A DNA stretch of 64,000 nt. Source: an uncultured bacterium (GTDB taxonomy: Bacteria > Zhuqueibacterota > QNDG01 > DTFT01). The number at the start of each line of letters is the position of its first letter. Position 1 is the first letter of the stretch. Location of the stretch: the NCBI GenBank assembly GCA_963736115.1, contig CAVTNR010000012.1:352001-416000 (forward strand), written 5' to 3'. Below are positions 48,991-62,742 of this stretch, one piece after another. The translations under genes and the position numbers were made by a program. The notes beneath the pieces were generated by a model. That model had not been told where the DNA came from. It searched no databases and was given only the letters and a program-made list of their open reading frames with translations.

Positions 48991-49018
48991 GCCTTCCTCC
49001 TTTGCGCAAAACCGTTTA

Positions 49019-49177
49019 ATGAATGACCCTGCCGCAAGCGGCGGGGTATCGCAAGAAACTTGGATGATGGACGCCGCAAGCGGTGGGGAATCAGACCCGT
49101 CGGAGCGGCCAGAAGCCCAATCTCCGATCATCCAGAAAAACTGGAACCAGAATGACCAGGCTTCTGGCCGCCCGATT
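49019..49177. repeat. 159-bp structured repeat, copy 1 (purN-purH intergenic)
   Basis: Ungapped match to 62547..62705 with 15 mismatches by manual count; two GCCGCAAGCGG hairpins plus a long GCGGCCAGAAGCC/GGCTTCTGGCCGC stem. Confidence 0.95.
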
Positions 49178-49189
49178 GATTTCCGCGCA

Positions 49190-49813
49190 TCATATCATAA
49201 ACGCATTTCCGCCGTGGATCCGGACTCTGTCTTCCGCGAACGCCTGGAGCACCTCGGGATACAGCGCATGCTCCGCTTCCAGCACGCGGCCGGCCAGGAC
49301 TTCCGCGGTATCGCCGGCCAGGACAGGCACGCACCGCTGGGCCAGGATGGGCCCGCGGTCGTACTGTTCGTCCACGAGGTGCACGGTCACGCCCGTGACC
49401 TTGCATCCCTGGCGAATCACGGCCTCGTGCACATGACGGCCGTACATGCCCTTCCCCCCGAATGCGGGGAGCAGGGCGGGATGAATGTTCACGATCCGGC
49501 CCGGATAGAGGGCCACCACCTCCGGAGGGACGCGCTTCATGTAACCGGCGAGCGCGATGAACCCGGCGCCCGATTCGCGGAGCACGTCCGTGAGGCGCGA
49601 AACGAAAGCCTCACGGGAGTCGAAACCGGCGCTGGAGACGGTTTCCGCGCGGATGCCACGGGCCCGGGCGGTCTCGAGCGCGCCGGCCGCGGGGTCGTTC
49701 GAAATCAGAACGGCCACGGACGCGTTCAGGCGGCCGCCATCGATCGCCGCGAGAATGGCGGCGAAATTAGAGCCCCGGCCTGAAGCGAAAACGCCGAGTT
49801 GAAGGGATTTCAT
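49190..49813 (-). CDS. purN: Phosphoribosylglycinamide formyltransferase
   Basis: ASGRGSN, LAGYM, NIHPALLP, GVTVHLV...D.GPI. Confidence 0.96.
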   Translation of the reverse strand: MKSLQLGVFASGRGSNFAAILAAIDGGRLNASVAVLISNDPAAGALETARARGIRAETVSSAGFDSREAFVSRLTDVLRESGAGFIALAGYMKRVPPEVVALYPGRIVNIHPALLPAFGGKGMYGRHVHEAVIRQGCKVTGVTVHLVDEQYDRGPILAQRCVPVLAGDTAEVLAGRVLEAEHALYPEVLQAFAEDRVRIHGGNAFMI

Positions 49814-49823
49814 CCGGCCCCGC

Positions 49824-51116
49824 TCACCGGATCCGGTTCAGGAGGTCGTGAATTGTGCCCTCGAGGCGGTAATCGCCCATGCCCGTTTGATCGATGAACA
49901 GCACCGACCGGTTGAAGGTATAGTACGTCCAGATTTCGTAGGGCTTGGATCCCGATTCAAACGGGTGCCTCTCGATTTCCCCCGGGGGGCCCAGGAGAAT
50001 GTACACCATGCCGCGGTCGGTTTTCCATCCGTCGATGAAGGTCCCGAAATTCTGGTTGGCGAATTCAACCCGGCGGTAGTATTCCTCCTCCAGCTCGTTC
50101 GCTTCCGTGTCCGGTGTCGGGTCCCTCTGCCTCCAGAATTCGCGGAATGCCTCAAGCCTGTCCTCGCCCTGCTTCTTCTTCATCTTCTTGATCTCGGAGC
50201 CCCTGGCGATGTACCGCACCTGTTCGATCATCTGGTCCAGGTCCGCGGCCTGCCCCGGCATGTCCCCCCAGTGCACGGTCATCGGCCGGGACCGCTTCAC
50301 GATCCGTTCTCCGCTTCCCACTTCGATGTCCAGCTTGTACCGCCCGCCCCTCAGGTCGCCCTTGGCGACGGAAAGCACGCACACGGTCCGGGTTCCGGAA
50401 AGGGGCCGGGTCAGCGTGTCGGAACGCACCACCGCGCCCTTGATGTCGGTCAGCCGCATGCGGATCGGGACGGACGTGATGGACGGCGGGTTGTGGATCT
50501 CGAACCAGACGAACAGGGAGTCCATGGTTTCGGAGAGATTGCCGAGCACGCTGGCCACGGGCGAGGGATTCCCGGCCGAGTCCGCGACAATGCGTTCGGC
50601 CAGAATGATGTCGGTTACCGTGAGGTCCCCGGGCCTGCCTTTAGCGGTCTGGACGGGAATCTTTTTCACCGAGGCTTTTCTGGAATCCAGGTCCAGAACC
50701 GAGAGCATGAGCTCGTACCGTCCGGGCGCGAAGTCGAAGGCGCTCTGGGCCGGAGCGAAGGCGGTACGGGAGTTGGTGGAATCATAGCCCAGCACCCGGA
50801 CCTCATAGGAGCGGATCTTCGCTTCCACCTGCTCGCCCTGGGTATTGAACAGAATCGCGGACAGTTCGAAGCGGGCGAGGTATCCGCCGCTGTCGCGGAT
50901 GAACTGCAGTTCGTCATAGGCAATCTTGACAAAGCAGGTGATCCGGCTCTTTCCGCTGTCCGGCGAGGCCGTGATGGCGGTGTCGAAATGAAAATCCGGA
51001 ACGTCCTCGTCGCGGGAGAATCGGATTTCGGCCGGCTGGGCCAGGGCCCCGCAGACCGCCGAGAACAGGAATCCCGCCAGGAGAAGCGGACGGCCGTGAC
51101 GGATTTGGGAACGCAT
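49824..51116 (-). CDS. GWxTD domain-containing exported protein
   Basis: Signal peptide; FWRQRDPTP...NE...EYYRRV..AN..F....GWKTDRG.VYI..GPP. Confidence 0.9.
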   Translation of the reverse strand: MRSQIRHGRPLLLAGFLFSAVCGALAQPAEIRFSRDEDVPDFHFDTAITASPDSGKSRITCFVKIAYDELQFIRDSGGYLARFELSAILFNTQGEQVEAKIRSYEVRVLGYDSTNSRTAFAPAQSAFDFAPGRYELMLSVLDLDSRKASVKKIPVQTAKGRPGDLTVTDIILAERIVADSAGNPSPVASVLGNLSETMDSLFVWFEIHNPPSITSVPIRMRLTDIKGAVVRSDTLTRPLSGTRTVCVLSVAKGDLRGGRYKLDIEVGSGERIVKRSRPMTVHWGDMPGQAADLDQMIEQVRYIARGSEIKKMKKKQGEDRLEAFREFWRQRDPTPDTEANELEEEYYRRVEFANQNFGTFIDGWKTDRGMVYILLGPPGEIERHPFESGSKPYEIWTYYTFNRSVLFIDQTGMGDYRLEGTIHDLLNRIR

Positions 51117-51225
51117 GGTTCACCTCGCGGATAGGAACTGCATCGCCGCGGACCTTCCCGGTCCATGGGTCAGGCCGGACGGCCCGCCCGTGACGCGGCT
51201 TTCATGTACGACCGGCCGGTTCCGG

Positions 51226-52599
51226 TCAGGAACGCTCCCGGGCCGTCTTCCGAGAGGCCTGGGAAACAACCGTTCCCGTCAGATCATATGCGGAGGACCC
51301 TTCGATCCGGACCGGCACGATGCGGCCCGGGCCGGCTTTCCCGCGGACCCAGACCACGGCGTCGATTTCCGGAGCGTCCCCCGGGGTCCGGCCGACGCAG
51401 AGCCTGCGCCGCCTGTCGGTGCCGTCCACCAAGACCGGGATCACCTTCCCTTCCAGGGAACGGTGGTATTCCGCGGACAGAGTTTTCTGGATGCGCATCA
51501 GAACGCCCGCCCGGCGCTTCGCAGTCGCGGCCGGTACGGCACGCCGCAACGCCGCGGCCCGGGTTCCCTCCTCGGGGGAAAAGGCGAAAACACCCATGCG
51601 CTCGAACCGGATCTCCCGGACGAACCGGGCCAGCTCTTCGAACCGGCTGTCGGTCTCGCCCGGGAATCCCGTGATGAAAGCCGTGCGGAGCGTCAGGCCT
51701 GGCACAAGCGCCCGGAGCGTCTCGATCAGCCGGATCACGGCGGCCTTCGTCATGCCGCGGCCCATGGCCTTCAGCACGGGATCCGAAATATGCTGAAGCG
51801 GCAGGTCCAGGGTTTTGCAGATTTTCGGTTCGGCCGCCATGGCGTCAATCAGGGCGTCATCCACATGCGCCGGGTGACCGTACAGGATCCGAATCCATTC
51901 AATTCCCTGGATGCGGACCAGTCTTTTCAGGAGCCGGGCCAGCGAAGCCTTCCCACCCAGGTCGCGACCGTAGGCGGTGGTGTCCTGGGCGATGAGGATC
52001 AGCTCCTTCACGCCCCGGTCCGCCAGAGATTCGGCTTCGCGCACAAGGCCGGCCTGCGGCCGGCTCCGGTATTTCCCCTTGAACAGGGGAATGGCGCAGA
52101 ACGAGCAGGCATGATCACAGCCGTCCGCAATCTTGAGATAGGCGGTGTGCGGCGGCGTGGACAGGACACGTCCGCATCGTCCGGCTTCGGACCAGCGGTA
52201 CCGCCCACCGATAATGTAACGCCCGATCGCCTGAAAAGGTTCTACCCCGAAATAGGCGTCCGCCTCCGGAATTTCCAGAGGCAGGGCGTCCCGGTACCGC
52301 TCCGAGAGGCATCCCCACACCACCACGCGCGGCCGGACGGCTCGGGACCGGCCGGCCTTATCCCTGAGCCTGACAGCTTCGAGTATCGCCTCGATGGACT
52401 CCTGCTTCGCGTCCCGGATGAAACCGCACGTATTGATGCAGATGTCGTCCGCCTCTTCAGGATCAGCCGTGAGAACGGCCCCGTGCCGCCTCAATTCGCC
52501 TGCCAGAACCTCGGAATCCACCTGGTTCTTGGGACAGCCGAGGGTGATGATGGCGACTTTTTTTTGTTTTTTTTGCACGATACCCGTTAAAAAAATCAT
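51226..52599 (-). CDS. rimO: Ribosomal protein S12 methylthiotransferase (start may be GTG 52578)
   Basis: LGCPKNQVDSE, INTCGFI..AKQES, CDHACSFC, DAPEID TRAM end. Confidence 0.95.
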   Translation of the reverse strand: MIFLTGIVQKKQKKVAIITLGCPKNQVDSEVLAGELRRHGAVLTADPEEADDICINTCGFIRDAKQESIEAILEAVRLRDKAGRSRAVRPRVVVWGCLSERYRDALPLEIPEADAYFGVEPFQAIGRYIIGGRYRWSEAGRCGRVLSTPPHTAYLKIADGCDHACSFCAIPLFKGKYRSRPQAGLVREAESLADRGVKELILIAQDTTAYGRDLGGKASLARLLKRLVRIQGIEWIRILYGHPAHVDDALIDAMAAEPKICKTLDLPLQHISDPVLKAMGRGMTKAAVIRLIETLRALVPGLTLRTAFITGFPGETDSRFEELARFVREIRFERMGVFAFSPEEGTRAAALRRAVPAATAKRRAGVLMRIQKTLSAEYHRSLEGKVIPVLVDGTDRRRRLCVGRTPGDAPEIDAVVWVRGKAGPGRIVPVRIEGSSAYDLTGTVVSQASRKTARERS

Positions 52600-52685
52600 A
52601 CCCGACTACGGACCGAAAGCCGAGGACCAACGGTCCGAGGTCTGGTGATCCGAGGTCCGTGTCATCGGATCAACAATTGCGGATT

Positions 52686-52767
52686 TGGAGTGCGGCGACA
52701 GGTTGCCGCTTTCCCGGCGCCGACATGTAGGCGCCGGGGAAAAGCGGTCTCCTTCGACCGCACTCCA
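52686..52767. repeat. REP/BIME-like palindromic element
   Basis: Terminal IR TGGAGTGCGG/CCGCACTCCA enclosing CCGCTTT/AAAGCGG and CCCGGCGCC/GGCGCCGGG stems. Confidence 0.8.
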
Positions 52768-52825
52768 CAGGATCCCATACGGCGAACATGCAATCGCTGA
52801 TCAGAGATCCCTTTCGGAAAGTTCT

Positions 52826-53743
52826 TCAATCCCCCAGAATCCCCTCGGCGAACGTCTCCGCGTCAAACGGCTGAAGGTCGTCGATTGCCTCGCCCAGACC
52901 CGCCCATCGGATCGGAATGCCGAGGGTCCGCCGGATCGCCAGCACGACCCCGCCCCTGGCCGTGCCGTCCAGCTTGGTGAGCACAATGCCGGTGACGCCC
53001 GCGGCTTCGGTGAACTGCCGCGCCTGGGCCAGCCCGTTCTGCCCGGTGGTGGCGTCCATCACCAGCAGGGTCTCGTGCGGAGCGGAAGGCATGCGCTTGG
53101 AGAGCACGCGCCGGATTTTCTTCAGCTCCTCCATGAGATTGACTTTGGTCTGCAGGCGCCCGGCCGTGTCGATCAGAAGCGCGTCCGCGGACTGACGCAC
53201 CGCGTGGTCCAAGGCATCGAATGCGACGGAGGCGGGGTCCGCGCCCTGCTTCTGCGAAATCACCGGAACCCCGGCCCGGCCGGCCCATACCGCGAGCTGT
53301 TCGTTCGCCGCGGGCCTGAACGTGTCCGCGGCCGCGATCACTGTTTTTTTTCCGTCGTTGCTGAAGCGGTGCGCCAATTTCCCGATCGTGGTGGTTTTAC
53401 CCGTGCCGTTCACGCCGACGACGAGCACCACCCAGGGTTTTTCCCGAAACGCGGTCGGATCCGGACCGCATCCCGCCAGAAGGACGCGGATCCGCTCCTT
53501 CAGGACGAGGCGCACGGCCTCGGCTTCTGCCCCTCCCTCCGGAATCCGCACGGTCCGGACGGCCTCGACCAGGTCGGCCGCTGTTTCTGGGCCCGCGTCC
53601 GCTTCGAGGAGCGCGGTCTCCAGGCCCTCCAGAATCGCCCCGCGATTCGGTCCGGCGGCCGTGAACAGACGGCTGATTCCGTCCCGGAGGGACTTGCCGG
53701 CCCTGGACAGACCCGCGGCCCAGCGAATCGAAACCGGGCTCAA
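52826..53743 (-). CDS. ftsY: SRP receptor FtsY (short NG-only form)
   Basis: GVNGTGKTTT, DTFRPAA, DTAGRL, TKLDGTARGG; TTG 53743 in TTGA overlap. Confidence 0.95.
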   Translation of the reverse strand: MSPVSIRWAAGLSRAGKSLRDGISRLFTAAGPNRGAILEGLETALLEADAGPETAADLVEAVRTVRIPEGGAEAEAVRLVLKERIRVLLAGCGPDPTAFREKPWVVLVVGVNGTGKTTTIGKLAHRFSNDGKKTVIAAADTFRPAANEQLAVWAGRAGVPVISQKQGADPASVAFDALDHAVRQSADALLIDTAGRLQTKVNLMEELKKIRRVLSKRMPSAPHETLLVMDATTGQNGLAQARQFTEAAGVTGIVLTKLDGTARGGVVLAIRRTLGIPIRWAGLGEAIDDLQPFDAETFAEGILGD

Positions 53744-54312
53744 GCCGCGTCCGCCTGCCGGCCCCTCGACGCTGAACGGCTCCGCACCGCGGCGCGGAAG
53801 GATTGCCAGTAGACCCAGGTTGAATACAGGGTGAGTCCGATCGCGAGCGCCATCGCCAGGTTCGCCCACGGCTGCCGGCCGAGAATGAACAGCACCACGC
53901 TCACGCCGGTGAAAAACGCCGAATTTTTCCCCGGCCGGTTCGCCTCGAGCACCACGCCTTTTCTGCGCACCGCCCACAGCCCGAATGCCAGCATGGACAG
54001 CTCCCGGACGACAAGAAACGCGAGGTACCAAAGGGGGAAACGGTAAAGCGGGGACAACACCATCAGCAGTGCGGCGGACAGCACGTTCACCTTGTCGATG
54101 AGCGGGTCCATCATCCGTCCGAGATCCGACGTCTGGTTGAAGCGGCGGGCGACCCATCCGTCGATAAAATCCGTGGCAATGCCGAGCATGATGAAGACGA
54201 GCGCGGCAACGCGCCGTCCCTCCGCCATGAAGAGAAGAATGGGAATCAGCAACAGGAGCCGCAGGAGGCTCAGGGCGTTCGGAATCGTCCAGATCCGCCT
54301 GTTATTTACCAT
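53740..54312 (-). CDS. CDP-alcohol phosphatidyltransferase (PgsA-like)
   Basis: TIPNALSLLR; DFIDGWVAR.....SDLG..MDP..DK signature. Confidence 0.92.
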   Translation of the reverse strand: MVNNRRIWTIPNALSLLRLLLLIPILLFMAEGRRVAALVFIMLGIATDFIDGWVARRFNQTSDLGRMMDPLIDKVNVLSAALLMVLSPLYRFPLWYLAFLVVRELSMLAFGLWAVRRKGVVLEANRPGKNSAFFTGVSVVLFILGRQPWANLAMALAIGLTLYSTWVYWQSFRAAVRSRSASRGRQADAA

Positions 54313-54320
54313 CGGTTTCC

Positions 54321-55490
54321 TCAGAAATAGGACCGGAACAGCTCGAAGGCCAGCCTGGGATGCTTGAACAGCCCGGCCTTGAAAATCGCCTGGGCCGTGC
54401 GTTTTTCCTCCGGAATCGCGGACAGGGTCCGCGCCACTCCGTTGAGCTCCTCGTCGGACAGCCCGTATACGACCTTCTTGATCCGGAAATCCCGTTCGGT
54501 GTTCTCCCCCTCGGCCTTCATCCACGCTTTAACGTAGGCCCCCAGCGCCTTTTTCGAAACGTCTCCGCGCTGGACGCATTCGGCCGCAGTTTCGCCCGCG
54601 AGCCGGCCCGCGATCAGGGCGTTGAGGATGCCGCCGCCCGTGAGGGGGCTGGCCTGATGCGCGGCGTCTCCGACGAGCATCATGCCGTCGGTAATGATGT
54701 CGCCCCGCGGCGGACAGAGTGGGACCCCGCCCGCGACCCAGGTCAGCACCGAAGCGCCCGGGCACCGCCGTTCGAGAAAATCCTTCAGAAAATCAACGGG
54801 CTTCCTGACCCGGCATGCCGCCTCCGGAACGCCGAGACCCACATTCGCGGTCCGTCCGCCCTTGGGGAACACCCAGGCGTATCCGCCGGGCGCGAGGGCC
54901 GATCCGAAATGGAACTCCGCGAGCTCCGGGTCAGGATCAAGGCCCGCGACCGTCGCCTGGCTGCAGCTCGCGATGAATTCCGGCGGCGTGCGGGTGTCGA
55001 GGCCCGCCCACCGGCCGACGGCCGATTCCACGCCGTCCGCTCCGATGACGATTTTTGCCGCCACGTCAAAGGTGCGGCCGAGATGCTCGACCCGGACGCC
55101 GGACACGGCCCCGTTCTGCCGGAGCAGGCCCGTGACGCAGGCCTTGGTGAGGAACACGGCCCCCGCCTCCGCCGCCATCGCGGCCAGGTCGGCGTCGAAC
55201 ACCTTGCGGTGCAGCACGGTTCCGGTGTCCCCGGGACAGGCGGTCACGACCGTGCCGTCCGGCGCGACCAATTTCGCGCCCCTTACCTCGCGTGCGATCC
55301 ACGACGGCCGCACCTGGATCAGGGCGTGCAGGCCTCGGGACGACACGCCCTCGGCGCACCGGACCGGGAGTCCGATTTCCCTGTCCTTCTCGAACACCAT
55401 CACCGAGGCCCCGGCCTGAGCCGCGGACCGGGCGGCCCAGGACCCCGCGGGTCCGCCTCCCACGACAACGACATCCGCGCGGTCTTTCAT
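54321..55490 (-). CDS. Geranylgeranyl reductase family flavoprotein (archaeal DGGGPL reductase-like)
   Basis: VVGGGPAG, PVRCAEG, RKVFD..L, GADG.ES, PGGYAWVFP, VGDAA....PLTGGGI. Confidence 0.88.
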   Translation of the reverse strand: MKDRADVVVVGGGPAGSWAARSAAQAGASVMVFEKDREIGLPVRCAEGVSSRGLHALIQVRPSWIAREVRGAKLVAPDGTVVTACPGDTGTVLHRKVFDADLAAMAAEAGAVFLTKACVTGLLRQNGAVSGVRVEHLGRTFDVAAKIVIGADGVESAVGRWAGLDTRTPPEFIASCSQATVAGLDPDPELAEFHFGSALAPGGYAWVFPKGGRTANVGLGVPEAACRVRKPVDFLKDFLERRCPGASVLTWVAGGVPLCPPRGDIITDGMMLVGDAAHQASPLTGGGILNALIAGRLAGETAAECVQRGDVSKKALGAYVKAWMKAEGENTERDFRIKKVVYGLSDEELNGVARTLSAIPEEKRTAQAIFKAGLFKHPRLAFELFRSYF

Positions 55491-55681
55491 TCCACCTTCT
55501 CCCGGACGGGCACACCCAGCGGGCACATCACGGCGCAGTCGCCGCACCCGACACAAAGGTCGTCAAGAACGCGTACGGAGGATTCCTTCAGCTCGATCGC
55601 CCCGGCCGGGCACACGGCGACGCACACGCCGCAGAAATCGCAGGCGGCGGCCGAAATCCGATAACGGACGTTCTGTTTCAA
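55487..55681 (-). CDS. Small 4Fe-4S dicluster ferredoxin
   Basis: CDFCGVCVAVCP and CVGCGDCAVMCP; ATGA overlap with the reductase. Confidence 0.9.
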   Translation of the reverse strand: MKQNVRYRISAAACDFCGVCVAVCPAGAIELKESSVRVLDDLCVGCGDCAVMCPLGVPVREKVE

Positions 55682-55688
55682 TCGGTCC

Positions 55689-56621: not shown

Positions 56622-58066
56622 CGCGCCTCCCCGAGCGGCCCGTCGAAATGGATTTTCTCGACGGGGTCGTCGTAGGGGACGGGGTAGTTCCCGTCGAAAC
56701 AGGCCGTGCAGTAATCGCCCTTTTCGCCCGGCACCGAGGCCAGCATGCCCTCCCTGGAAAGGTAGCCCAGGGAATCGACATGAAGGAATTCCCGAATCTC
56801 CTCCACGGACCGGTTCGATGCGATCAGCTCCTCACGTGTCGGAAAATCCATGCCGTAGTAGCAGGGATGGAGGATGGGCGGAGAACTGACGCGGATGTGC
56901 ACTTCGGTCGCGCCCGCCTTGCGGATGAACTGGGTCAGGGTTCTCAGCGTCGTGCCCCGGACGATGGAATCCTCGACGACCACGACCCGGCGTCCCTTCA
57001 GGACGCCCTCGACGGGGTTGAATTTCACCTTCACCCCGAAATTGCGGATCGACTGCTGGGGCTGGATGAAGGTGCGGCCGATGTAGTGGTTCCGGATCAG
57101 GCCGAGCTCGAACTTGAGTCCGCTCCGGCGGGCGAAACCCAGGGCCGCCGTGTTGCTGGAGTCGGGCACGGAAATGACGATGTCCGCGTCCACGGGATGC
57201 TCCTCCACAAGGCGCTTGCCGAACTTGCGGCGGGTTTTATCAACGCATTCGCCGAAGATGCGGCTGTCCGGCCGGCTGAAATAGATGAACTCGAAAATGC
57301 AGCAGCTTCTGCGTCCGGTCCCTTCAAGCTTCTCCGATCGCATGCCGTACTCGTCAAAGACGATCATCTCACCCGGCTCCACGTCGCGCACGTATTCCGC
57401 GCCGATGAGATCGAAGGCGCACGTCTCGGATGCCACGGCCCAGGCGCCGCCCTCCAAACGGCCGAGCGCCAGGGGCCGGAACCCGCTCGGATCGCGGGCG
57501 GCGATGAGGCACTCACGCGAAAGCAATACCAGGGAATACGCCCCGCGTACGGCGTTCAGCGCCTCCTTCACGCGGTCCGTGAAACGGCCGCATCGGGAGC
57601 GGGCGATGAGATGCAGGATGATTTCGCTGTCCGTGGACGTCTGGAAAATCGCGCCCTCGGACTGAAGCCGCTCGCGGAGGCTCCGGTAATTGACCAGATT
57701 GCCGTTGTGCCCGAGCGCGAGCGGGCCTTCCTTGGAATTGACCACAATGGGCTGGATGTTGATCAGCTGGTCGGAGCCGGTCGTCGAGTAGCGGTTGTGG
57801 CCGATGGCCTGGCCGCCCTTGAGGGTTCGGAGTATCTCCGGCGCGTGGAACACGTCGTTGACGAGCCCCTGACCGAGGTGCTTGTACAGCCGGATGCCGT
57901 CCGAAGAGACGATGCCGCAGCCCTCCTGCCCGCGGTGCTGCAGCGCGTACAGGGACAGGTAAGCCATTTCGGCCGCTTCGGGGTGGCCGTGAACGCCGAT
58001 GACGCCGCAGAATTCCCTGGGTTCATCCGGCGCGGATTGGGGGGTCATGCCGTCAGCCTTCCTCAT
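56618..58066 (-). CDS. purF: Amidophosphoribosyltransferase
   Basis: Propeptide + CGV; LQHRGQE, HNRYSTTG, HNGNL, VEDSIVRGTT, CYYGMD. Confidence 0.96.
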   Translation of the reverse strand: MRKADGMTPQSAPDEPREFCGVIGVHGHPEAAEMAYLSLYALQHRGQEGCGIVSSDGIRLYKHLGQGLVNDVFHAPEILRTLKGGQAIGHNRYSTTGSDQLINIQPIVVNSKEGPLALGHNGNLVNYRSLRERLQSEGAIFQTSTDSEIILHLIARSRCGRFTDRVKEALNAVRGAYSLVLLSRECLIAARDPSGFRPLALGRLEGGAWAVASETCAFDLIGAEYVRDVEPGEMIVFDEYGMRSEKLEGTGRRSCCIFEFIYFSRPDSRIFGECVDKTRRKFGKRLVEEHPVDADIVISVPDSSNTAALGFARRSGLKFELGLIRNHYIGRTFIQPQQSIRNFGVKVKFNPVEGVLKGRRVVVVEDSIVRGTTLRTLTQFIRKAGATEVHIRVSSPPILHPCYYGMDFPTREELIASNRSVEEIREFLHVDSLGYLSREGMLASVPGEKGDYCTACFDGNYPVPYDDPVEKIHFDGPLGEAR

Positions 58067-59112
58067 GTGATCACGATGGGATTGGAATAGATCCAGCCCC
58101 GGTTCTTGCGGAAAATTTCAATCCGGTAGACGCCGGATTCAGAGGCGCGCAGCCGGACGCTCCGGCCGTACTCCTCTCGCGCGACCCGGCCGTCCCGCAG
58201 GAGCCGCATGCGGCCCGGCAGAGGCGCCTCGGCACGGAACAGGACGTTTCCCGAGCGCGCCAGGCGGCTGCCCATCGGGTGCCGCTTTCCGGCCCGTTCG
58301 GCCCAGAACCGGAATCCGCGGCCGTCGCCGAGGGAATGATTGACGATAAACGCCCGGCCGGCGCCCAGCGACTCGAATACGGCCGCTTCAGCCTCGGCCG
58401 GAGTCGGCACATCGGCCGGCCGCAAAGGCTTGGCGGTCAGAATGTGCATCCGGATGGACTTGAACTGGACCTTGTATGGATACAGGGCGACCGGGAACAG
58501 ACCCAGGACCTTGTACTCGAATGCGTGCACATCGATGCCGCCCAGGCCCACAACCCGTCGCTTCCGGTTCAGCCGGTCCCAACGGTCCAACGTGGTCCAG
58601 ACCGGGAAGCGGATGGACCGCAGAGGATGCCAGATCCGCCAGATGAAATTACGGCGCGTCACGCCCTCGAGCCATTCGGACATCTGGTTCCAGATTTCGA
58701 TGCCGTCGAATCCGTCGACATCCCAGTCGGTCCAGGGATACGGCGGATAGGCGTCGGAGAAACTGCGCTTTTCCGCCGGGTGGGCGATCACCCCGAATCC
58801 GCCCTGGCGGGAGACACGCCGGACGTTCTGCCGGGCCGTCAGCCCGGCCGGTATTTCCCTGCGGATCCGGAAAGCCAGGTAATGGTTCCGGTCGTTCTCG
58901 TCATTGAGCTCGCACCCGGCGAGAACCAGCGTCCGGCCGTGCCAGCCCTCGAGCCCGAGCCGCCTGGGCGCGAGCGTGTTGTGGTCCGTGAACAGCAGGA
59001 AATCGAGCCCCATGTCCCCGGCGATGGCCGCGATCTCGGGAATGGGCAAAGCGCCGTCTGAAAAGTCGCTGTGCAGATGGACCGCTCCGGCAGCCTCATG
59101 CCAGTCATGCAT
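58063..59112 (-). CDS. PHP-domain metallohydrolase
   Basis: HLHSDFSDG, TDHN, AHP, GIEIWN, GGIDVH, WIYSNPI. Confidence 0.85.
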   Translation of the reverse strand: MHDWHEAAGAVHLHSDFSDGALPIPEIAAIAGDMGLDFLLFTDHNTLAPRRLGLEGWHGRTLVLAGCELNDENDRNHYLAFRIRREIPAGLTARQNVRRVSRQGGFGVIAHPAEKRSFSDAYPPYPWTDWDVDGFDGIEIWNQMSEWLEGVTRRNFIWRIWHPLRSIRFPVWTTLDRWDRLNRKRRVVGLGGIDVHAFEYKVLGLFPVALYPYKVQFKSIRMHILTAKPLRPADVPTPAEAEAAVFESLGAGRAFIVNHSLGDGRGFRFWAERAGKRHPMGSRLARSGNVLFRAEAPLPGRMRLLRDGRVAREEYGRSVRLRASESGVYRIEIFRKNRGWIYSNPIVIT

Positions 59113-59117
59113 CCGCT

Positions 59118-59519
59118 TCACCACCATGAAAGGAGCAGGGCGCCGCATCCGGCGCCCAGCAGGTTGGCGGCCATGTCCTTCCAGCTGGCATGGCCCCGTC
59201 CCGTGCCGCGGTCGAGAATTTCCTTGAGCCCGCCCACCGACACCGTGAAGGCGACGCCCGCGGCGAGGCTCCGGTTCCGGCTTTCATGGCCTTGAACGTT
59301 CATCGTCCGGCTGACCGCGCCGGTGAGGAGGAAGGACGCAGTGAAGTGACGGGCTTTGTCCGTGCCGAACCAGGAATCGCCGCCGCGGACGATGACGCAG
59401 GAATCCGCGGCTGTGGCCCGCGCTTCACCGGCCGCGGCCGTCCCGGACGGAACCGCAAGCGCGGCCGCGATCAGGACGCAGGCCGCAACGGCCGGTCTAG
59501 AGGCCCAGTTCGGCTTCAA
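59118..59519 (-). CDS. YfiM/DUF2279-like membrane protein (start uncertain)
   Basis: DSWFGTDKARHF, G.LKE..D, SWKD..AN..G. Confidence 0.7.
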   Translation of the reverse strand: MKPNWASRPAVAACVLIAAALAVPSGTAAAGEARATAADSCVIVRGGDSWFGTDKARHFTASFLLTGAVSRTMNVQGHESRNRSLAAGVAFTVSVGGLKEILDRGTGRGHASWKDMAANLLGAGCGALLLSWW

Positions 59520-60042
59520 TGGACTGCATCCCTTCGAGCGAGAGGCCGATGAAATCGCGGAGCGGCAGCCCCATTCCCTCGCAGGACCGGATCTGTTCAC
59601 GGTTGGCGCCCGCGGCGAAACGCTTTTCATCGAAACGCCTCTCGATGAATTCCACGTTCACGTTGCGGATCTTTTTCGTCGGGTGCATGAGAGCCGCGGC
59701 CACGATGAGTCCCGTGACCGGATCCGCCGCGTACAACGCCTGGTCGAGCCGGGATTTCCGCGGAAAATGGCCGGGATGGCTCTTGATGGCGTACACGACC
59801 GGCTCGGGCACGTCTTTTCCCTCGAGCATCTTTTCCGTCACGATGCCGTGCTTCGGAAAATCGTTCGCGGTCCGGTCATAGTCGAGGTCATGCAGAAGAC
59901 CGGACAGGCCCCACAGTTCCTCGTCCTCGCCGAAATGCCTTGCCAGCCGGCGCATGACAGCCTCGGCCGCCAGCATGTGCTTGATCAGGTTCTTGTTGGA
60001 GACGTTTTTTTGGACGAGATCCAGAGCCTCTTCGCGGGTCAT
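59497..60042 (-). CDS. HDIG/HD-domain phosphohydrolase
   Basis: MTREEAL, KHMLA, GLLHDLDY, AIKSH, AADP.TG, FAAGANR. Confidence 0.9.
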   Translation of the reverse strand: MTREEALDLVQKNVSNKNLIKHMLAAEAVMRRLARHFGEDEELWGLSGLLHDLDYDRTANDFPKHGIVTEKMLEGKDVPEPVVYAIKSHPGHFPRKSRLDQALYAADPVTGLIVAAALMHPTKKIRNVNVEFIERRFDEKRFAAGANREQIRSCEGMGLPLRDFIGLSLEGMQSIEAELGL

Positions 60043-60150
60043 ATCCCTTGTCCTATTCTGATGATCGTTGTCTTTTATGACGCAGCCTTGCAACGCAACA
60101 GCAGAAGCCTCCGGCCCGAGGAAAGCCGGTGAACGCGTTCGTTTTCAGTT

Positions 60151-60801
60151 TCAGAAAGAGACGCTCAGCCGGACACCCATCACCCCGCCTCCGAATGCAC
60201 CCCACCCCGGCTCCGGGCCCGTGTCGAAATGCCAGAGATGGGCGTCCACGTATGCGTCGGCAAGCGTCAGGCCGTAGAGGCCCGCAACCCACCACCAGGT
60301 CAGGTTCCGGCTGTTTTCGTAGAAGGCGCGCTCGTCATCCGTGACCGAATCCGCCGCGCGGCGGTTCTGGATGATGATGTTCGCCGCGAGTCCGGCCGCG
60401 CCCGCGGCCACCAGGCCGGTCTTCCATTTGGCGCCGTTGTACCACTGGCCCCATCCGGGCAGAACCGCGGACCGGATCAGGGCGCCCCTCGGAGATTTTG
60501 TTTCGGTTTTCTGCGGAACGGTCCGGGCGGTGAGCCCGGCGCTGTCCGGTCCGACGCTTTCACGTCCGGCCGTGTCCGGCCTGACGCTTTGACGTCCGAC
60601 GCTGTCCGGCGCGGCCTCACCCGAAGGAGCAGCGATGACAGCCGCGGTCTTGGATGAATCCGGGCCGGTACCCGTTGTGTCCGCGGGCCGGGCGGACCCC
60701 CAGGCGCGTCCGGCGGAAACGGCCGTTAACGCCGCGACCAGGACTGCCCGCCGGAGCCGCGGCCCCGGACGGTCAGGACGGAATTTCAGCCACGCACTCA
60801 A
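60151..60801 (-). CDS. DUF5683-like exported/membrane protein (start uncertain)
   Basis: KSPRGALIRSAVLPGWGQWYN...DAYVDAHL..FD; terminal Phe. Confidence 0.7.
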   Translation of the reverse strand: MSAWLKFRPDRPGPRLRRAVLVAALTAVSAGRAWGSARPADTTGTGPDSSKTAAVIAAPSGEAAPDSVGRQSVRPDTAGRESVGPDSAGLTARTVPQKTETKSPRGALIRSAVLPGWGQWYNGAKWKTGLVAAGAAGLAANIIIQNRRAADSVTDDERAFYENSRNLTWWWVAGLYGLTLADAYVDAHLWHFDTGPEPGWGAFGGGVMGVRLSVSF

Positions 60802-61165
60802 TTTCAACCAGCGCGTCTTTCGGCAGGCGGCGCACTTCAACCGTGGACCGGGCGGGCGCGGGCGCGGAAAAGAAGGACCCGTACACGGCGTTCATCTCAG
60901 TAAAGTCGTTCATGTCCGCGAGAAAAACCGTGGTCTTCAGCACGCGGTCGAGCCCGCTGCCGGCGGATTCCAGAACCGCCCGGAGATTCTCGACCGCCCT
61001 GCGGGTCTGCGCTTCTATTCCGCCGTCCACGAGCGCCCCGGTTCCGGGATCGATGCCGAGTTGACCGGCCGTAAACACCAGGTTCGCGCCGGACGCAATC
61101 ACCGCCTGGCTGTAAGGGCCGATGGCCTTCGGGGCCGCATCCGACCGGACTTCCCTGCGGGTCAT
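60773..61165 (-). CDS. ridA: RidA family imine deaminase
   Basis: APKAIGPYSQA, KTTVFL, PARSTVEV..LPK..LVEIE. Confidence 0.95.
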   Translation of the reverse strand: MTRREVRSDAAPKAIGPYSQAVIASGANLVFTAGQLGIDPGTGALVDGGIEAQTRRAVENLRAVLESAGSGLDRVLKTTVFLADMNDFTEMNAVYGSFFSAPAPARSTVEVRRLPKDALVEIECVAEIPS

Positions 61166-61362
61166 CAGTCGCCTCCCTTTTTCCTGCCGTCATCGATGTC
61201 CTCGAAGCGCGCGTCCTGCACGTCCGACCGGCTCAGATCCAGGGGTTCGTTTTTGGGCCGTCCCTTGACCCGGGGGTCCTCTTTTTCAGGCCGCCGGGTC
61301 ATGACCTGCACGGTCTTGATCCCGAAATAAATCAGGAGCATCCAGAATATCAGTCGAAGCAT
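61165..61362 (-). CDS. Small single-TM hypothetical protein
   Basis: 65 aa, hydrophobic N-terminus, DARFEDI tail; fills the operon gap and overlaps the ridA start. Confidence 0.75.
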   Translation of the reverse strand: MLRLIFWMLLIYFGIKTVQVMTRRPEKEDPRVKGRPKNEPLDLSRSDVQDARFEDIDDGRKKGGD

Positions 61363-61371
61363 CGGCGTCTC

Positions 61372-62004
61372 TCAGGATTTGCGTGGCACGTAGTACTTGA
61401 CCCCGACCGGCGGATTCTCGATCTGCCGGATCAGGTCCTCGAGGTCCTCGGTGTTCCGCACAAAATCGATTTCCGACGTGTTGACCACCAGAAGGGGCGT
61501 CTCCCGGTAGTGGAAAAAATACGTGTTGTAGGCCTCGTTGAGCTGGCGGATGTAGTCCGACGAAATGTTGCGCTCGTATTTCCGGTTCCGCTGGCGGATA
61601 TGTTCGATGAGCCGCTCGGTGCTGGACTGGAGGTAGATGGCCAGGTCGGGCTTCGGCAGTTCCCTCTCCATGAGGGTCGCGACCTTCTCGTACAGGATCA
61701 GGTCGCGCCGCTCGAGGTTCAGATAGGCGAAGATCTTGTCCTTGGCGAAAAGATAGTCCGCGATGAGGTGGCTGTGGAACAGGTCCTGCTGGGGAATGCC
61801 GAGCAGTTGGCGGTACCGGGTGATCAGGAAAAAGAGCTGAAGCTGAAAAGCGAACCGCTGGGGGTCCCGGTAGAAATCCTCGAGATAGGGATTCTCCTCG
61901 GAGGCCTCGAACACCAGGTTGGCGTTCATCCGCTCCGCGAGCAGACGGGCCAGGCTGGTCTTGCCCGCTCCGATGACTCCCTCAATCGCGATGTAATAGG
62001 GCAT
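61372..62004 (-). CDS. Deoxynucleoside kinase
   Basis: IAIEGVIGAGKTSL, NPYL..FY, Q..FL..R, PDL.IYL. Confidence 0.93.
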   Translation of the reverse strand: MPYYIAIEGVIGAGKTSLARLLAERMNANLVFEASEENPYLEDFYRDPQRFAFQLQLFFLITRYRQLLGIPQQDLFHSHLIADYLFAKDKIFAYLNLERRDLILYEKVATLMERELPKPDLAIYLQSSTERLIEHIRQRNRKYERNISSDYIRQLNEAYNTYFFHYRETPLLVVNTSEIDFVRNTEDLEDLIRQIENPPVGVKYYVPRKS

Positions 62005-62022
62005 GCCGTTTTCCTCCAGAAC

Positions 62023-62523
62023 TCATCCGTCCCGGATGACCCGCCGGACGGTCCCGCTGTCCCCGCAGGTTTTTAGCATCTCCGCAATCGTGCGTCCGCT
62101 CTCCGGATCGGTAAAGCCGGAGGCGATCTCCGCGAGAGGCTCCAGCACGAAACGGCGGCCGGCCGCGGCCGGATGCGGGAGCCGCAGGTTTTCCTCTTTG
62201 ATCACAGTCGAGCCGAAGTACAGGATGTCGATGTCGATGGTGCGCGGGCCCCACCGGTTCTTCCGTCTGCGGCCGAGCCGGTTTTCAATGGCGTGGCAGG
62301 CCTCCAGCAGGCCGGCCGGACTCAGGCCCGTCCGGATTTCCGCGACCTGGTTCAGAAAATCCCTCTGGCCGCTCAGACCCCACGGTTCCGTCTCATATAC
62401 GGAAGAAAGACGGACCACTTCTGTGTCCGGAAGTTTCGCGATCAGTTCCGCGGCTTGTTCCAGAAGGCTGGACCGGTCGCCCAGATTGGAGCCCATGCCC
62501 AGAAAAACGCGGGCTGACGTCAT
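62023..62523 (-). CDS. folK: 6-hydroxymethyl-7,8-dihydropterin pyrophosphokinase
   Basis: GSNLGDR, YETEPWG, FLN, WGPRTIDIDIL, LPHP....RRFVL.PL.EI; ATG 62523. Confidence 0.96.
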   Translation of the reverse strand: MTSARVFLGMGSNLGDRSSLLEQAAELIAKLPDTEVVRLSSVYETEPWGLSGQRDFLNQVAEIRTGLSPAGLLEACHAIENRLGRRRKNRWGPRTIDIDILYFGSTVIKEENLRLPHPAAAGRRFVLEPLAEIASGFTDPESGRTIAEMLKTCGDSGTVRRVIRDG

Positions 62524-62546
62524 GCTTGCACTGTGATTAATTCCAA

Positions 62547-62705
62547 ATGAAGGACCCCGCCGCAAGCAGCGGAGTATCACAGGAAACTTGGATGATGGAC
62601 GCCGCAAGCGGCGGGGAATTCGACCCGTCGGAGCGGCCAGAAGCCCAATCTCCGATCATCCAGGAAAATTGGAAACATAATGACGTGGCTTCTGGCCGCC
62701 CGATT
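62547..62705. repeat. 159-bp structured repeat, copy 2 (folK leader)
   Basis: ~91% identical to 49019..49177, same orientation. Confidence 0.95.
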
Positions 62706-62713
62706 AATCCAAA

Positions 62714-62742
62714 AATTTATTAAAAATTGTTGAGATTGTCAA
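62714..62742 (-). promoter_or_regulatory. sigma70-type promoter of the folK operon
   Basis: TTGACA (62742-62737)-N17-TAAATT (62719-62714); predicted +1 near 62707. Confidence 0.75.

What the first reader, a model, noticed from the sequence alone, without database searches (positions are those of the whole stretch)
49019..62742. The same 159-nt structured element leads two folate/purine genes (purH and folK): candidate new cis-regulatory RNA or co-opted palindromic mobile element
Seen: copies at 49019-49177 and 62547-62705 align without gaps (15 mismatches), share orientation, and end 28 and 23 nt before the start codons of purH and folK. Copy 2 begins about 2 nt after the predicted +1 of a TTGACA-N17-TAAATT promoter, so it would form nearly the whole folK 5'UTR. 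Copy 1 fills most of the purN-purH gap. In mRNA sense there is an invariant long stem (GCGGCCAGAAGCC/GGCUUCUGGCCGC) whose loop carries UGGAUGAU, complementary to a downstream AUCAUCCA (possible pseudoknot or alternative pairing, also invariant), followed by two CCGCUUGCGG-type hairpins. Established: PurH consumes ZMP and 10-formyl-THF, and such genes are typical targets of ZTP and THF riboswitches; I do not see the ZTP consensus here. Inference: an undescribed folate/ZMP-responsive leader. Alternative: the paired GCCGCAAGCGGC hairpins resemble IS200/IS605-type subterminal palindromes, so this may be a non-autonomous element that landed here by chance.
Basis: partly seen in the sequence, partly recalled or inferred. 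Interest (0 to 1): 0.8.

Follow-up and report, generated by a model that had tools for sequence, protein, structure and literature searches.

The report
Mobile palindromic repeat, not a riboswitch
The shared 159-base element in front of purH and folK is one of about fifty copies of a small, hairpin-rich mobile DNA element that landed at these two genes recently, not a folate- or purine-sensing RNA switch.

Summary
The two 159-nt stretches align without gaps with 15 mismatches, lie in the same sense as purH and folK, and end 28 and 23 nt before their start codons.

- The element has 49 loci in this 3.3-Mb genome and is present in all 4 genomes of the genus.
- It stands next to unrelated genes: 17 of 19 downstream genes examined have no link to folate or purine.
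- It is missing from both orthologous sites in 3 of 3 congeners. A metagenome contig about 97% identical at the flanks also has the empty folK site.

The element behaves like a non-autonomous IS200/IS605-type element (a PATE):
- The insert is 157 nt, with no terminal inverted repeats and no target duplication.
- It always sits 3' of TCAA/TTAA.
- It carries subterminal GC hairpins.
- In 37 of 49 copies its strand follows the GC skew.

One metagenome contig holds a complete IS200 element with the same end hairpins, the same ...CTTCAT end and a TTCAA left flank. No cognate transposase was found in the genus.

The long "invariant stem" is a 68-nt stem-loop nested in the left-end spacer. This is a new member of a known kind, of low to moderate interest.

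The parts
49019..49175 (-). Copy 1 of the 157-nt non-autonomous element, in the purN-purH spacer (199 nt between the purN stop and the purH start).
   Evidence: Boundaries are set by analogy with the filled/empty junctions. The element is absent from this spacer in 3 of 3 congeners.
62547..62703 (-). Copy 2 of the element, inserted between the folK promoter and the folK ribosome-binding region.
   Evidence: The site is exactly empty in G001, G002 and G003. A 1225-nt metagenome contig joins 62545 to 62703, skipping 157 nt.
49176..49179 (-). Target tetranucleotide TCAA immediately 5' of copy 1; this is flank DNA, not element.
   Evidence: TCAA is the commonest 5' tetranucleotide: 15 of 46 in the own genome, 11 of 26 in congener loci.
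62704..62707 (-). Target tetranucleotide TTAA immediately 5' of copy 2; it already exists in the empty sites of the congeners.
   Evidence: empty site ...GGATTAA|TTGG....
49100..49175 (-). Module A of copy 1: a long, near-perfect stem-loop (element columns 3-78), read here as a stem-loop nested in the left-end spacer.
   Evidence: folds; 94.6% of cells paired. Arms are nearly invariant in 31 copies. Related metagenome elements lack this module.
62628..62703 (-). Module A stem-loop of copy 2.
49072..49085 (-). Hairpin 1 of copy 1 (left-end-type GC hairpin, columns 93-106).
   Evidence: The same hairpin type forms the left end of the IS200 element in L175.
49019..49050 (-). Right end of copy 1: GATA, then hairpin 2 (columns 132-151), then the 8-nt tail ending ...TTCAT.
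   Evidence: It matches the right end of the L175 IS200 element at 29 of 33 positions, 18 of which were fixed by the search pattern.
62547..62578 (-). Right end of copy 2: GATA, hairpin 2, ...CTTCAT.
   Evidence: It was flagged as a weak terminator-like site, at a level no higher than expected by chance.
62714..62742 (-). The folK promoter-like site TTGACA-N17-TAAATT. It belongs to folK, not to the element.
   Evidence: It is conserved in the three congeners that lack the element.
47290..48990 (-). purH (TTG start at 48990, preceded by AAGGAGGAA).
   Evidence: start and RBS conserved in congeners; AICARFT_IMPCHas 309.5 bits, MGS 89.5 bits.
62023..62523 (-). folK (HPPK), ATG at 62523.
   Evidence: HPPK 137.1 bits.

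Best explanation
The element is a 157-nt non-autonomous transposable element of the IS200/IS605 kind, a palindrome-associated transposable element or PATE. It has spread to about 50 sites in this genome and in its genus. Its presence before purH and folK is a coincidence of recent insertion.

Proposed mechanism (inferred):
- A Y1 (HUH) single-strand transposase supplied in trans recognises the two subterminal GC hairpins on one DNA strand.
- It excises that strand and pastes it 3' of a T-N-A-A tetranucleotide (mostly TCAA or TTAA) in single-stranded DNA at the replication fork.
- This leaves no target duplication.
Folded out of the way, it leaves about 14 nt between the left cleavage site and hairpin 1, against 17 nt in related elements without it and 19 nt in IS608.

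Consequences for the two genes (inferred, not shown): the folK mRNA of this species carries the element as a strongly folded 5' leader starting a few bases after the transcription start. The purN-purH transcript carries it as an intercistronic structure. It may change mRNA stability or read-through, but it is not a ligand sensor.
For: Copy number and spread
- 60 BLAST pieces merge into 49 loci in the own 3.34-Mb genome.
- All 4 of 4 genomes of the genus carry it, with 19-29 scored matches each. There are only partial matches in 4 of the 37 other genomes searched.
- A 19-mer of module A occurs in 31 loci of three congeneric genomes. The 6 single hits elsewhere show no further similarity.

Mobility
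- The folK site is exactly empty in 3 of 3 congeners, with promoter and flanks conserved.
- The purN-purH spacer holds unrelated sequence in 3 of 3 congeners.
- One contig of run X1 (4 runs laid) joins across the folK insert, with 22 other letters in 784 flank bases.
- Of 33 element clusters in 31 congener loci, 11 are cleanly empty in the own genome, 8 are shared, 12 are ambiguous and 2 have no flank match.

Junction anatomy
- There is no duplication longer than 1 nt and no terminal inverted repeat.
- The element runs TCGGGCGG...CTTCA(T).
- 5' flank in the own genome: T at -4 in 35 of 46 and A at -1 in 34 of 46.
- 5' flank in congener loci: T at -4 in 23 of 26 and A at -1 in 25 of 26.
- The tetranucleotide is present in the empty sites.

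Strand bias
- The element strand equals the G-rich strand at 37 of 49 loci (binomial p 4.7e-4), the same with 10, 25 and 50 kb windows.
- It holds at 14 of 17 loci between divergent or convergent genes, and at 5 of 7 loci where the flanking genes disagree with the skew.
- The direction is the one expected if the active strand lies on the lagging-strand template (passages of PMC5027513; the sign of skew is established knowledge).

Autonomous relative
- Metagenome contig L175 reads TTCAA | hairpin | 150-aa transposase | GATA-hairpin-AGCTTCAT. The transposase scores 129.6 bits on NF033573 (cut-off 55) and 115.1 bits on PF01797.
- 63 of 80 metagenome loci carry the complete right-end hairpin on many different bodies.
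- Six of these loci look like this element without module A.

The rules for IS608 are in passages of PMC3201880.
Against: No cognate transposase was found where the element lives.
- The own assembly (87% complete) has only three RAYT-type Y1 genes, each flanked by different palindromes.
- IS200-type genes of congeners have unrelated ends.
- The L175 transposase has no match in G000-G004.
- It has only 27-41% identical relatives, without the hairpin, in 7 of 167 genomes of the phylum.

The link to L175 rests on one 1.6-kb contig. That contig was found with a pattern that fixed 18 of the 33 right-end positions.

The left end differs from canonical IS200/IS605: the cleavage site abuts a long stem, and the 'folded-out' geometry is my inference.

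The orientation test uses GC skew on contigs of a metagenome-assembled genome, not a known origin.

In eight orthologous own/congener pairs, the stem arms diverged less (21 of 360) than 60-nt flanks (75 of 503). Pure junk DNA would not be expected to behave this way.
Confidence: 0.8

Rival explanations
1. REPIN/BIME-like element mobilised by one of the genome's three REP-associated tyrosine transposases (RAYTs). The two GC hairpins would act as REPs, and a domesticated single-copy Y1 enzyme would spread them.
For: - Three RAYT genes score above the NCBIfam cut-off of 80 bits (90.9, 88.2 and 133.9 bits).
- Module B folds as one long hairpin in which the two GC palindromes pair with each other.
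- The element is inherited vertically at 8 shared loci.
- Stems are better conserved than flanks.
- RAYTs are the only Y1 enzymes found in the own assembly.
Against: - Each RAYT is flanked by its own, different GTAG-type palindromes, with 65 and 56 tag copies in the genome and no strand bias.
- The element has GATA or GATT, not GTAG, 5' of its hairpins.
- Its ends match an IS200-type element instead.
- The two hairpins are direct copies of a self-complementary unit, not an inverted REP pair.
Confidence: 0.1
2. Undescribed folate/ZMP-responsive cis-regulatory RNA (riboswitch-like leader) shared by purH and folK.
For: - It lies in the sense orientation directly upstream of two folate/purine genes, inside the predicted folK 5' UTR.
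- The fold is very stable.
Against: - There are 49 loci. Of 19 downstream genes examined (out of 33 sense-downstream genes), only these 2 are folate or purine genes, 15 belong to unrelated families and 2 have no family.
- It is absent from both orthologous leaders in 3 of 3 congeners, while the promoter, RBS and start are kept.
- An empty allele exists in a metagenome.
- No Rfam family reaches its gathering score. The permissive search gives only miRNA and lncRNA chance hits at E 0.11-0.68.
- Covariation score is 0.081 against 0.077 in shuffles (102 of 500 shuffles as high), and 0 of 8 pseudoknot pairs show double changes.
- In the folded folK leader the element pairs with itself, not with the RBS.
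Confidence: 0.01
3. Classical MITE derived from a DDE-transposase insertion sequence.
For: It is small, non-coding, intergenic, multi-copy and folds into hairpins.
Against: - The two ends are not reverse complements of each other.
- There is no target duplication at 12 filled/empty junctions.
- A replication-strand bias is not expected for cut-and-paste of double-stranded DNA.
Confidence: 0.02
4. A mobile element in origin, but many copies are now kept by the host for a structural role, such as mRNA 5' or intercistronic stabiliser, attenuator or protein-binding site. On this view the purH and folK copies do affect expression without sensing a ligand. This does not exclude the main explanation.
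For: - In orthologous copies the stem arms differ at 5.8% of sites against 14.9% in 60-nt flanks (odds ratio 0.35, p 2.4e-5).
- Copies are enriched between divergent genes: 13 of 49, against 240 of 2280 intergenic gaps genome-wide.
- Copy 2 lies within the folK transcript.
Against: - The sample is small (8 pairs, one own locus used twice, gaps counted as differences).
- The sites are empty in close relatives, so the element is dispensable.
- No expression data exist.
- Gene conversion among copies could also slow divergence.
Confidence: 0.15

Closest known systems
IS200/IS605-family insertion sequences and their protein-less derivatives (PATEs), e.g. IS608 and ISDra2
   Same: - No terminal inverted repeats and no target duplication.
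- The left end is always 3' of a specific tetranucleotide.
- Subterminal hairpins at both ends.
- The right cleavage site lies a few nt 3' of the hairpin foot (8 nt here, 10 nt in IS608).
- Orientation is tied to replication direction.
- A relative with the same ends encodes an IS200 Y1 transposase (L175).

Sources: passages of PMC5027513, PMC3201880 and PMC10055086.
   Different: - It carries an extra 68-nt stem-loop between the left cleavage site and the left hairpin.
- No tnpA with these ends, and no tnpB, was found in the four genomes of the genus.
- Guide/cleavage-site pairing could not be assessed.
- It is itself a host for ~44-nt nested inserts.
REP/BIME/REPIN elements with RAYT (TnpA-REP) transposases
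   Same: - Abundant extragenic GC palindromes that fold as single strands.
- Related Y1 HUH chemistry.
- Partly vertical inheritance.
- RAYT genes are present in the genome.

Sources: abstract start and passages of PMC3116915; passages of PMC3333891 and PMC8266576.
   Different: - No GTAG tag.
- The RAYTs here are flanked by other palindromes.
- Defined transposon ends with a target tetranucleotide.
- The stem, loop and tail pattern of the CGTC families of PMC3733652 (abstract and section 6) is also not matched.
ZTP (pfl) and THF riboswitches
   Same: Only the genomic position: upstream of purH and of a folate-pathway gene.
   Different: - No covariance-model match.
- Not conserved at orthologous sites.
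- Multi-copy next to unrelated genes.
- No expression platform visible in the fold.
Bacterial MITEs co-transcribed with neighbours (Correia, ERIC, RUP, Chunjie, Nezha). These names are recalled from memory, not from any call.
   Same: Small non-coding repeats that land in 5' UTRs or inside operons and become part of mRNAs.
   Different: Those elements have terminal inverted repeats and target duplications. This one has neither.
Very small dispersed mobile repeats of cyanobacteria (Elhai et al. 2008). Seen only as a reference entry and in a search listing; the paper is not held.
   Same: This is a possible analogue, from memory, for the ~44-nt nested inserts noticed here: tiny repeats found inside other repeats.
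   Different: It was not compared, because the text could not be read.

Membership tests
Riboswitch / dedicated cis-regulatory leader (ZTP, THF or new) | Match to a curated covariance model | tested here: not met
   No family reaches its gathering score in the 64-kb window. The permissive scan of 48850-49350 gives only chance miRNA and lncRNA hits at E 0.11-0.68.
Riboswitch / dedicated cis-regulatory leader (ZTP, THF or new) | Conserved at the orthologous leader in related genomes | tested here: not met
   The element is absent in 3 of 3 congeners at folK and at purN-purH. An empty folK allele occurs in a metagenome contig.
Riboswitch / dedicated cis-regulatory leader (ZTP, THF or new) | Association restricted to a functionally coherent gene set | tested here: not met
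   Only 2 of 19 downstream genes examined are folate or purine genes. There are 49 loci, of which 12 are antisense to both neighbours.
Riboswitch / dedicated cis-regulatory leader (ZTP, THF or new) | Covariation supporting the RNA structure | tested here: not met
   Score 0.081 against a shuffled mean of 0.077, with 102 of 500 shuffles as high. The pseudoknot helix has 0 of 8 pairs with double changes.
Riboswitch / dedicated cis-regulatory leader (ZTP, THF or new) | Ligand-dependent structural switch | not testable with these tools
   This needs in-line probing or reporter assays.
IS200/IS605-derived non-autonomous element (PATE) | No terminal inverted repeats | tested here: met
   By direct reading of the 23- and 31-copy alignments, the left end TCGGGCGGCC... 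and the reverse complement of the right end ...GGGGTCCTTCAT do not match.
IS200/IS605-derived non-autonomous element (PATE) | No target-site duplication | tested here: met
   The folK junction in 3 congeners and 11 further filled/empty pairs show at most 1 ambiguous base.
IS200/IS605-derived non-autonomous element (PATE) | Left end inserted 3' of a specific tetra- or pentanucleotide | tested here: met
   TCAA or TTAA in 23 of 46 own copies, and TCAA in 11 of 26 congener copies. T at -4 and A at -1 in 74-96% of copies. The motif already exists in empty sites.
IS200/IS605-derived non-autonomous element (PATE) | Subterminal hairpins at both ends | tested here: met
   Hairpins 1 and 2 are paired in 91.6% and 88.7% of cells (folds). 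The left hairpin lies 14 nt from the cleavage site only if the module A stem is folded out, which is an inference.
IS200/IS605-derived non-autonomous element (PATE) | Orientation bias relative to replication (active strand on the lagging-strand template) | tested here: met
   37 of 49 copies agree with the local GC-skew sign, independent of gene orientation. The origin and terminus are not known.
IS200/IS605-derived non-autonomous element (PATE) | Ends shared with an autonomous element encoding a Y1 TnpA | tested here: inconclusive
   There is one metagenome contig (L175) with the same hairpins, tail and flank. None was found in G000-G004 or in 167 genomes of the phylum.
IS200/IS605-derived non-autonomous element (PATE) | Guide sequence 5' of the hairpin foot pairs with the cleavage site | not tested
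   GATA or GATT stands 5' of the hairpins. The pairing rules include non-canonical contacts (PMC3201880), so I did not score them.
REPIN / RAYT system | RAYT gene flanked by the same palindromes | tested here: not met
   The three RAYTs are flanked by other, GTAG-type palindromes.
REPIN / RAYT system | Conserved GTAG 5' of the palindrome | tested here: not met
   GATA (right end) and GATT (hairpin 1) stand there instead.
DDE-type MITE | Terminal inverted repeats plus target duplication | tested here: not met

The most novel reading that the evidence does not exclude
This genus hosts a layered single-strand-DNA transposon ecosystem that goes beyond an ordinary PATE.

(a) The 157-nt family has acquired a 68-nt perfect stem-loop. 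It acts as a fold-out adaptor in the left end and is held under constraint even in fixed, orthologous copies.

(b) A separate class of ~44-nt micro-elements (122 copies) inserts specifically into the loops of GC hairpins, including the transposase-binding hairpins of the PATEs and of each other. It follows junction rules that fit no described transposase. This would be a new kind of hairpin-loop-targeting mobile DNA, or a parasite of parasites.
Probability: 0.2. Interest if true: 0.55.

Novelty: new member of a known kind. Interest (0 to 1): 0.25.

Why it matters
The result removes a false riboswitch candidate. A shared structured leader before two pathway-related genes can be a coincidence of a mobile repeat, and a whole-genome copy count plus empty-site checks settle the question quickly.

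On the positive side, it defines a previously undescribed PATE family in an uncultured lineage, with clean junctions, a target motif and a replication-strand bias. It ties that family to a widespread environmental superfamily of small elements that share one IS200-type right end.

The nested stem-loop in the left end, and the ~44-nt inserts that sit in hairpin loops, are small puzzles of interest to people who study single-strand transposition. For the host, one species now transcribes folK with a 157-nt, -84 kcal/mol leader that its closest relatives lack. That is a natural experiment on the effect of 5' structure.

Tried and rejected
RNA and expression
- Rfam at gathering and permissive thresholds gave nothing relevant.
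- Sequencing runs: 21 were listed and no RNA holder was listed, so nothing can be said on expression.
- The terminator-like hit at hairpin 2 and two in the module A arm are no more than the shuffles give.
- The pseudoknot and structure covariation were not above controls.

Search for a transposase
- TnpB (PF07282) in the own genome: none.
- IS91-type Y2_Tnp in G000-G004: none, but the control genomes rang nowhere, so this is uninformative.
- IS110-type: one gene in an AT-rich island of the own genome, with ends unrelated to any repeat here.
- Closely spaced element pairs enclose only housekeeping genes.
- RAYT flanks and the IS200 genes of congeners have unrelated palindromes.
- The Y1 gene of metagenome locus L142 beside two family-2 repeats has unrelated ends.
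- The L175 transposase searched in G000-G004 and in 167 genomes of the phylum gave no close relative and no shared hairpin.

Other ideas dropped
- I tried to re-parse the ~44-nt inserts so that they obey the TNAA|...CTTCA| rule. That only works after rotating the unit and implies an implausible pre-insertion site, so it is left unexplained.
- The CGTC-type REP families (PMC3733652, section 6) do not match in stem, loop or tail pattern.

Literature
- Search one search returned nothing useful.
- One search was rejected for a syntax reason and re-sent.
- Elhai 2008 is not held.
- Supplementary files of papers were not consulted.

Full report
**1. Observation**

The two stretches are as described. 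Window 49019-49177 and 62547-62705 align without gaps over 159 columns with 15 mismatches. Both lie in the sense of minus-strand genes. The element ends 28 nt before a TTG that opens purH and 23 nt before the ATG of folK (direct reading). Pfam confirms both genes: AICARFT_IMPCHas plus MGS, and HPPK. The promoter-like TTGACA-N17-TAAATT upstream of copy 2 is real by consensus, with 10 of 12 matches. The element folds very stably as RNA or as either DNA strand (-83.8, -41.9 and -43.5 kcal/mol; z -6.7, -5.6 and -6.75).

**2. It is a dispersed repeat**

A search of the whole 3.34-Mb assembly (31 contigs, 87% complete) gave 47 matches. My own BLAST gave 60 pieces, which merge into 49 loci. Twenty-three are near full length.

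The element is modular. Module A (columns 1-93) holds the long stem. Module B (95-159) holds two GCCGCTTGCGGC-type hairpins. In several copies other short repeats are nested between or inside them.

All four genomes of the genus carry the family. Among the 37 other genomes searched, one of the same family and three of the same order show only partial, mostly module B, matches. A 19-mer of module A occurs in 37 loci of a collection of 185,579 species. Of these, 31 lie in three unnamed congeneric genomes. The other 6 are single hits in unrelated taxa with no further similarity, which is about chance level.

**3. Neighbouring genes**

I used a crude codon-usage gene caller of my own (2311 genes; starts are over-extended).
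- 48 of the 49 loci are intergenic or lie at ORF edges.
- 20 loci lie in the sense of two co-directional neighbours and 12 lie antisense to both (binomial p 0.22).
- 13 loci lie between divergent genes and 4 between convergent genes.
- Of the 33 genes that have a copy upstream in sense, I could hand 19 to Pfam because they lie in stored loci.
- Of those 19, 2 are PurH and HPPK, 2 have no family, and 15 belong to unrelated families.
- The unrelated families are deoxyhypusine synthase, GH2, peptidase M3, lamin-tail domain, phosphofructokinase, ABC ATPase, ExbB, TonB-receptor plug, RlmH-type SPOUT, RNase P protein, a methyltransferase, CDP-alcohol transferase, a histidine kinase, RNase R and UPF0047.

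**4. Empty sites**

At folK, the three congeners have promoter, flanks and start codon at 89-96% identity. The two flanks abut exactly...GGATTAA|TTGG....

At purN-purH, the three congeners keep the RBS and the TTG start. Their spacers are unrelated to the element and to each other.

In public sediment-metagenome contigs, one 1225-nt contig (run X1; 4 runs laid) joins 62545 to 62703 and skips 157 nt. It has 22 other letters in 784 flank bases. Depth over the element is about 100 times that of the flanks, as expected for a multi-copy repeat.

I also ran the test in the other direction. Of 33 element clusters in 31 congener loci:
- 11 are cleanly empty in this genome;
- 8 are shared (orthologous);
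- 12 are ambiguous or rearranged;
- 2 have no flank match.

The family has therefore moved since these species split, and the folK insertion is younger than about 3% flank divergence.

**5. Junctions, target and strand**

All filled/empty pairs give the same picture. The insert runs TCGGGCGGCC...GGGGTCCTTCA(T). There is no duplication beyond one ambiguous base and no terminal inverted repeat. The DNA just 5' of the insert is TCAA, TTAA, TGAA or TCGA, and this tetranucleotide is already present in the empty site.
- Across 46 left ends in this genome the tetranucleotide is TCAA 15 times and TTAA 8 times, with T at -4 in 35 and A at -1 in 34.
- In 26 congener left ends TCAA occurs 11 times, T at -4 23 times and A at -1 25 times.
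- The genome-wide frequencies of TCAA and TTAA are 0.3% and 0.08%.

The strand that reads TNAA|TCGGG...CTTCAT is the G-rich strand at 37 of 49 loci (p 4.7e-4).
- The count is identical for skew windows of 10, 25 and 50 kb.
- It is 14 of 17 between divergent or convergent genes, where gene direction cannot explain it.
- It is 5 of 7 where the neighbours disagree with the skew.
- Other repeats of the genome show no such bias: 62 of 122, 38 of 65 and 25 of 56.

For the IS200/IS605 family, the papers state three relevant properties:
- The left end always inserts 3' of an element-specific tetra- or pentanucleotide.
- The ends carry subterminal hairpins rather than inverted repeats.
- Excision and insertion favour the lagging-strand template.

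These come from passages of PMC5027513 and PMC3201880. The lagging-strand template has the sequence of the leading, G-rich strand (established knowledge), so the direction of the bias fits.

**6. An autonomous relative and a superfamily**

No transposase with these ends is in the genus.
- The own genome has three Y1 genes, all RAYT-type (NF047646 at 90.9, 88.2 and 133.9 bits; cut-off 80). Each sits among its own GTAG-type palindromes.
- The IS200-type genes of congeners have other ends.
- There is no TnpB.

A pattern for the right end (18 letters) found more than 118 metagenome stretches, of which 80 were held.
- 63 of the 80 carry the complete hairpin. It is usually preceded by GATA or AATA and followed by CTTCA-T (45) or CTTCA-A (17).
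- The hairpin is attached to many different bodies. None has module A.
- One 1626-nt contig, L175, reads...TTTTCAA | hairpin | a 150-aa ORF that is a full-length IS200/IS605 transposase (NF033573 129.6 bits, cut-off 55; PF01797 115.1 bits) | GATA-hairpin-AGCTTCAT | ....
- The right end of L175 matches the element's consensus at 29 of 33 positions, 18 of them fixed by the pattern.
- The left flank of L175 is the target motif that I had derived independently.
- Six metagenome elements (L159, L160, L179, L128, L115, L148) look like this element without the module A stem-loop. Their left ends read TNAA|TCTCTGAGGGTATAATT-hairpin, against TCAA|TCGG[68-nt stem-loop]TCCGACGGGTCTGATT-hairpin here.

I therefore read module A as a stem-loop nested in the left-end spacer. 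When it folds, about 14 nt separate the left cleavage site from hairpin 1. The figure is 17 nt in the elements without it and 19 nt in IS608. This would explain why the stem arms are nearly invariant in 31 copies while the loop varies. It would also explain why a diverged subfamily keeps the stem by paired changes: GCGGCC/GGCCGC becomes GCTGTC/GACAGC. These last steps are inference.

**7. RNA-level tests**

On 31 distinct full-length copies, 92.2% of cells pair. Covariation is not above the shuffle control (0.081 against 0.077; 102 of 500 shuffles as high). The loop/downstream 'pseudoknot' has no pair with changes on both sides. In the predicted folK leader the element folds on itself and leaves the RBS region alone. 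No RNA run was listed, so expression was not examined.

**8. What remains odd**

(a) In eight orthologous pairs the stem arms differ at 21 of 360 sites, the loop at 22 of 244, the linker at 21 of 120 and the 60-nt upstream flanks at 75 of 503 (arms against flank: p 2.4e-5). This hints at constraint or gene conversion, on a small and imperfect sample.

(b) The genome holds 122 copies of a ~44-nt unit (YCTTCAA, an AT-rich stretch, then a CCCGC...GCGGG hairpin).
- It is almost always inserted in the loop of a GC hairpin, including both hairpins of this element and the hairpins of other such units.
- It has no strand bias.
- It differs between orthologous copies in different species.
- I could not fit it to a known mechanism.

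(c) The source of transposase in the genus is unknown.

**9. Verdict**

This is a new family of a known kind of element. Earlier notes of this scan hold no look-alike DNA. They suggest the genome belongs to a Bacteroidota-related uncultured lineage, which I did not test.

Noticed in passing
Own genome outside the window, e.g. L020:1602-1645 (= G000:C9:39656-39699); 122 sites listed: A ~44-nt repeat consisting of YCTTCAA, about 20 AT-rich nt, then TTGRTCCCGC...GCGGG. It is inserted almost always in the loop of a GC hairpin, after GCTTG or GAAG and before CGGC. It occurs in either orientation and is nested in copies of itself, in the 157-nt element and in RAYT-type REPs. It shows no replication-strand bias (62 of 122). 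Its content differs between orthologous element copies of congeners.
   Followed up: partly
Own genome, e.g. G000:C8:149900-150130 and G000:C14:183950-184170; metagenome loci L113, L120, L142: A second host repeat family of about 150 nt without inserts. It has 42 5'-end motifs in the genome and two GC hairpins, and it ends in ...GGGGAGCTTCAAT, the same right-end type as the studied element. In this genome its hairpin loops are usually occupied by the 44-nt unit. In other metagenomes the loops are empty.
   Followed up: partly
G000:C17:75009-75827, C2:71373-71945, C19:57396-57962 (L031-L033): Three REP-associated tyrosine transposase genes, each embedded in its own GTAG-type palindromes. The tags GGTAGCCGC and GTAGGTCCGA occur 65 and 56 times in the genome. 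This points to at least two separate REP/RAYT systems besides the PATE family.
   Followed up: partly
L175:684-1233 (metagenome contig): An apparently complete, roughly 550-bp IS200-type insertion sequence with identical-type hairpins at both ends and a TTCAA left flank. It is the only autonomous relative found for a right-end hairpin that occurs in more than 118 metagenome stretches.
   Followed up: yes
window 48991-49189 and the orthologous spacers in L034, L035, L036: The purN-purH spacer is hypervariable within the genus, with four unrelated sequences of roughly 100-235 nt. The last codons of purN also differ, while the purH RBS and TTG start are fixed. The G003 spacer carries other GC hairpins.
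   Followed up: partly
Eight orthologous element copies (own genome against L051, L055, L057, L063, L071, L081, L072, L079): The module A stem arms diverge 2.5-fold less than the adjacent 60-nt flanks (21 of 360 against 75 of 503). One own copy (C9:182639) shows a paired C-G to T-A change in the stem.
   Followed up: partly
G000:C14:86800-89600: A single IS110-family (DEDD) transposase gene in an AT-rich island. Its surroundings show none of the repeats described here.
   Followed up: partly
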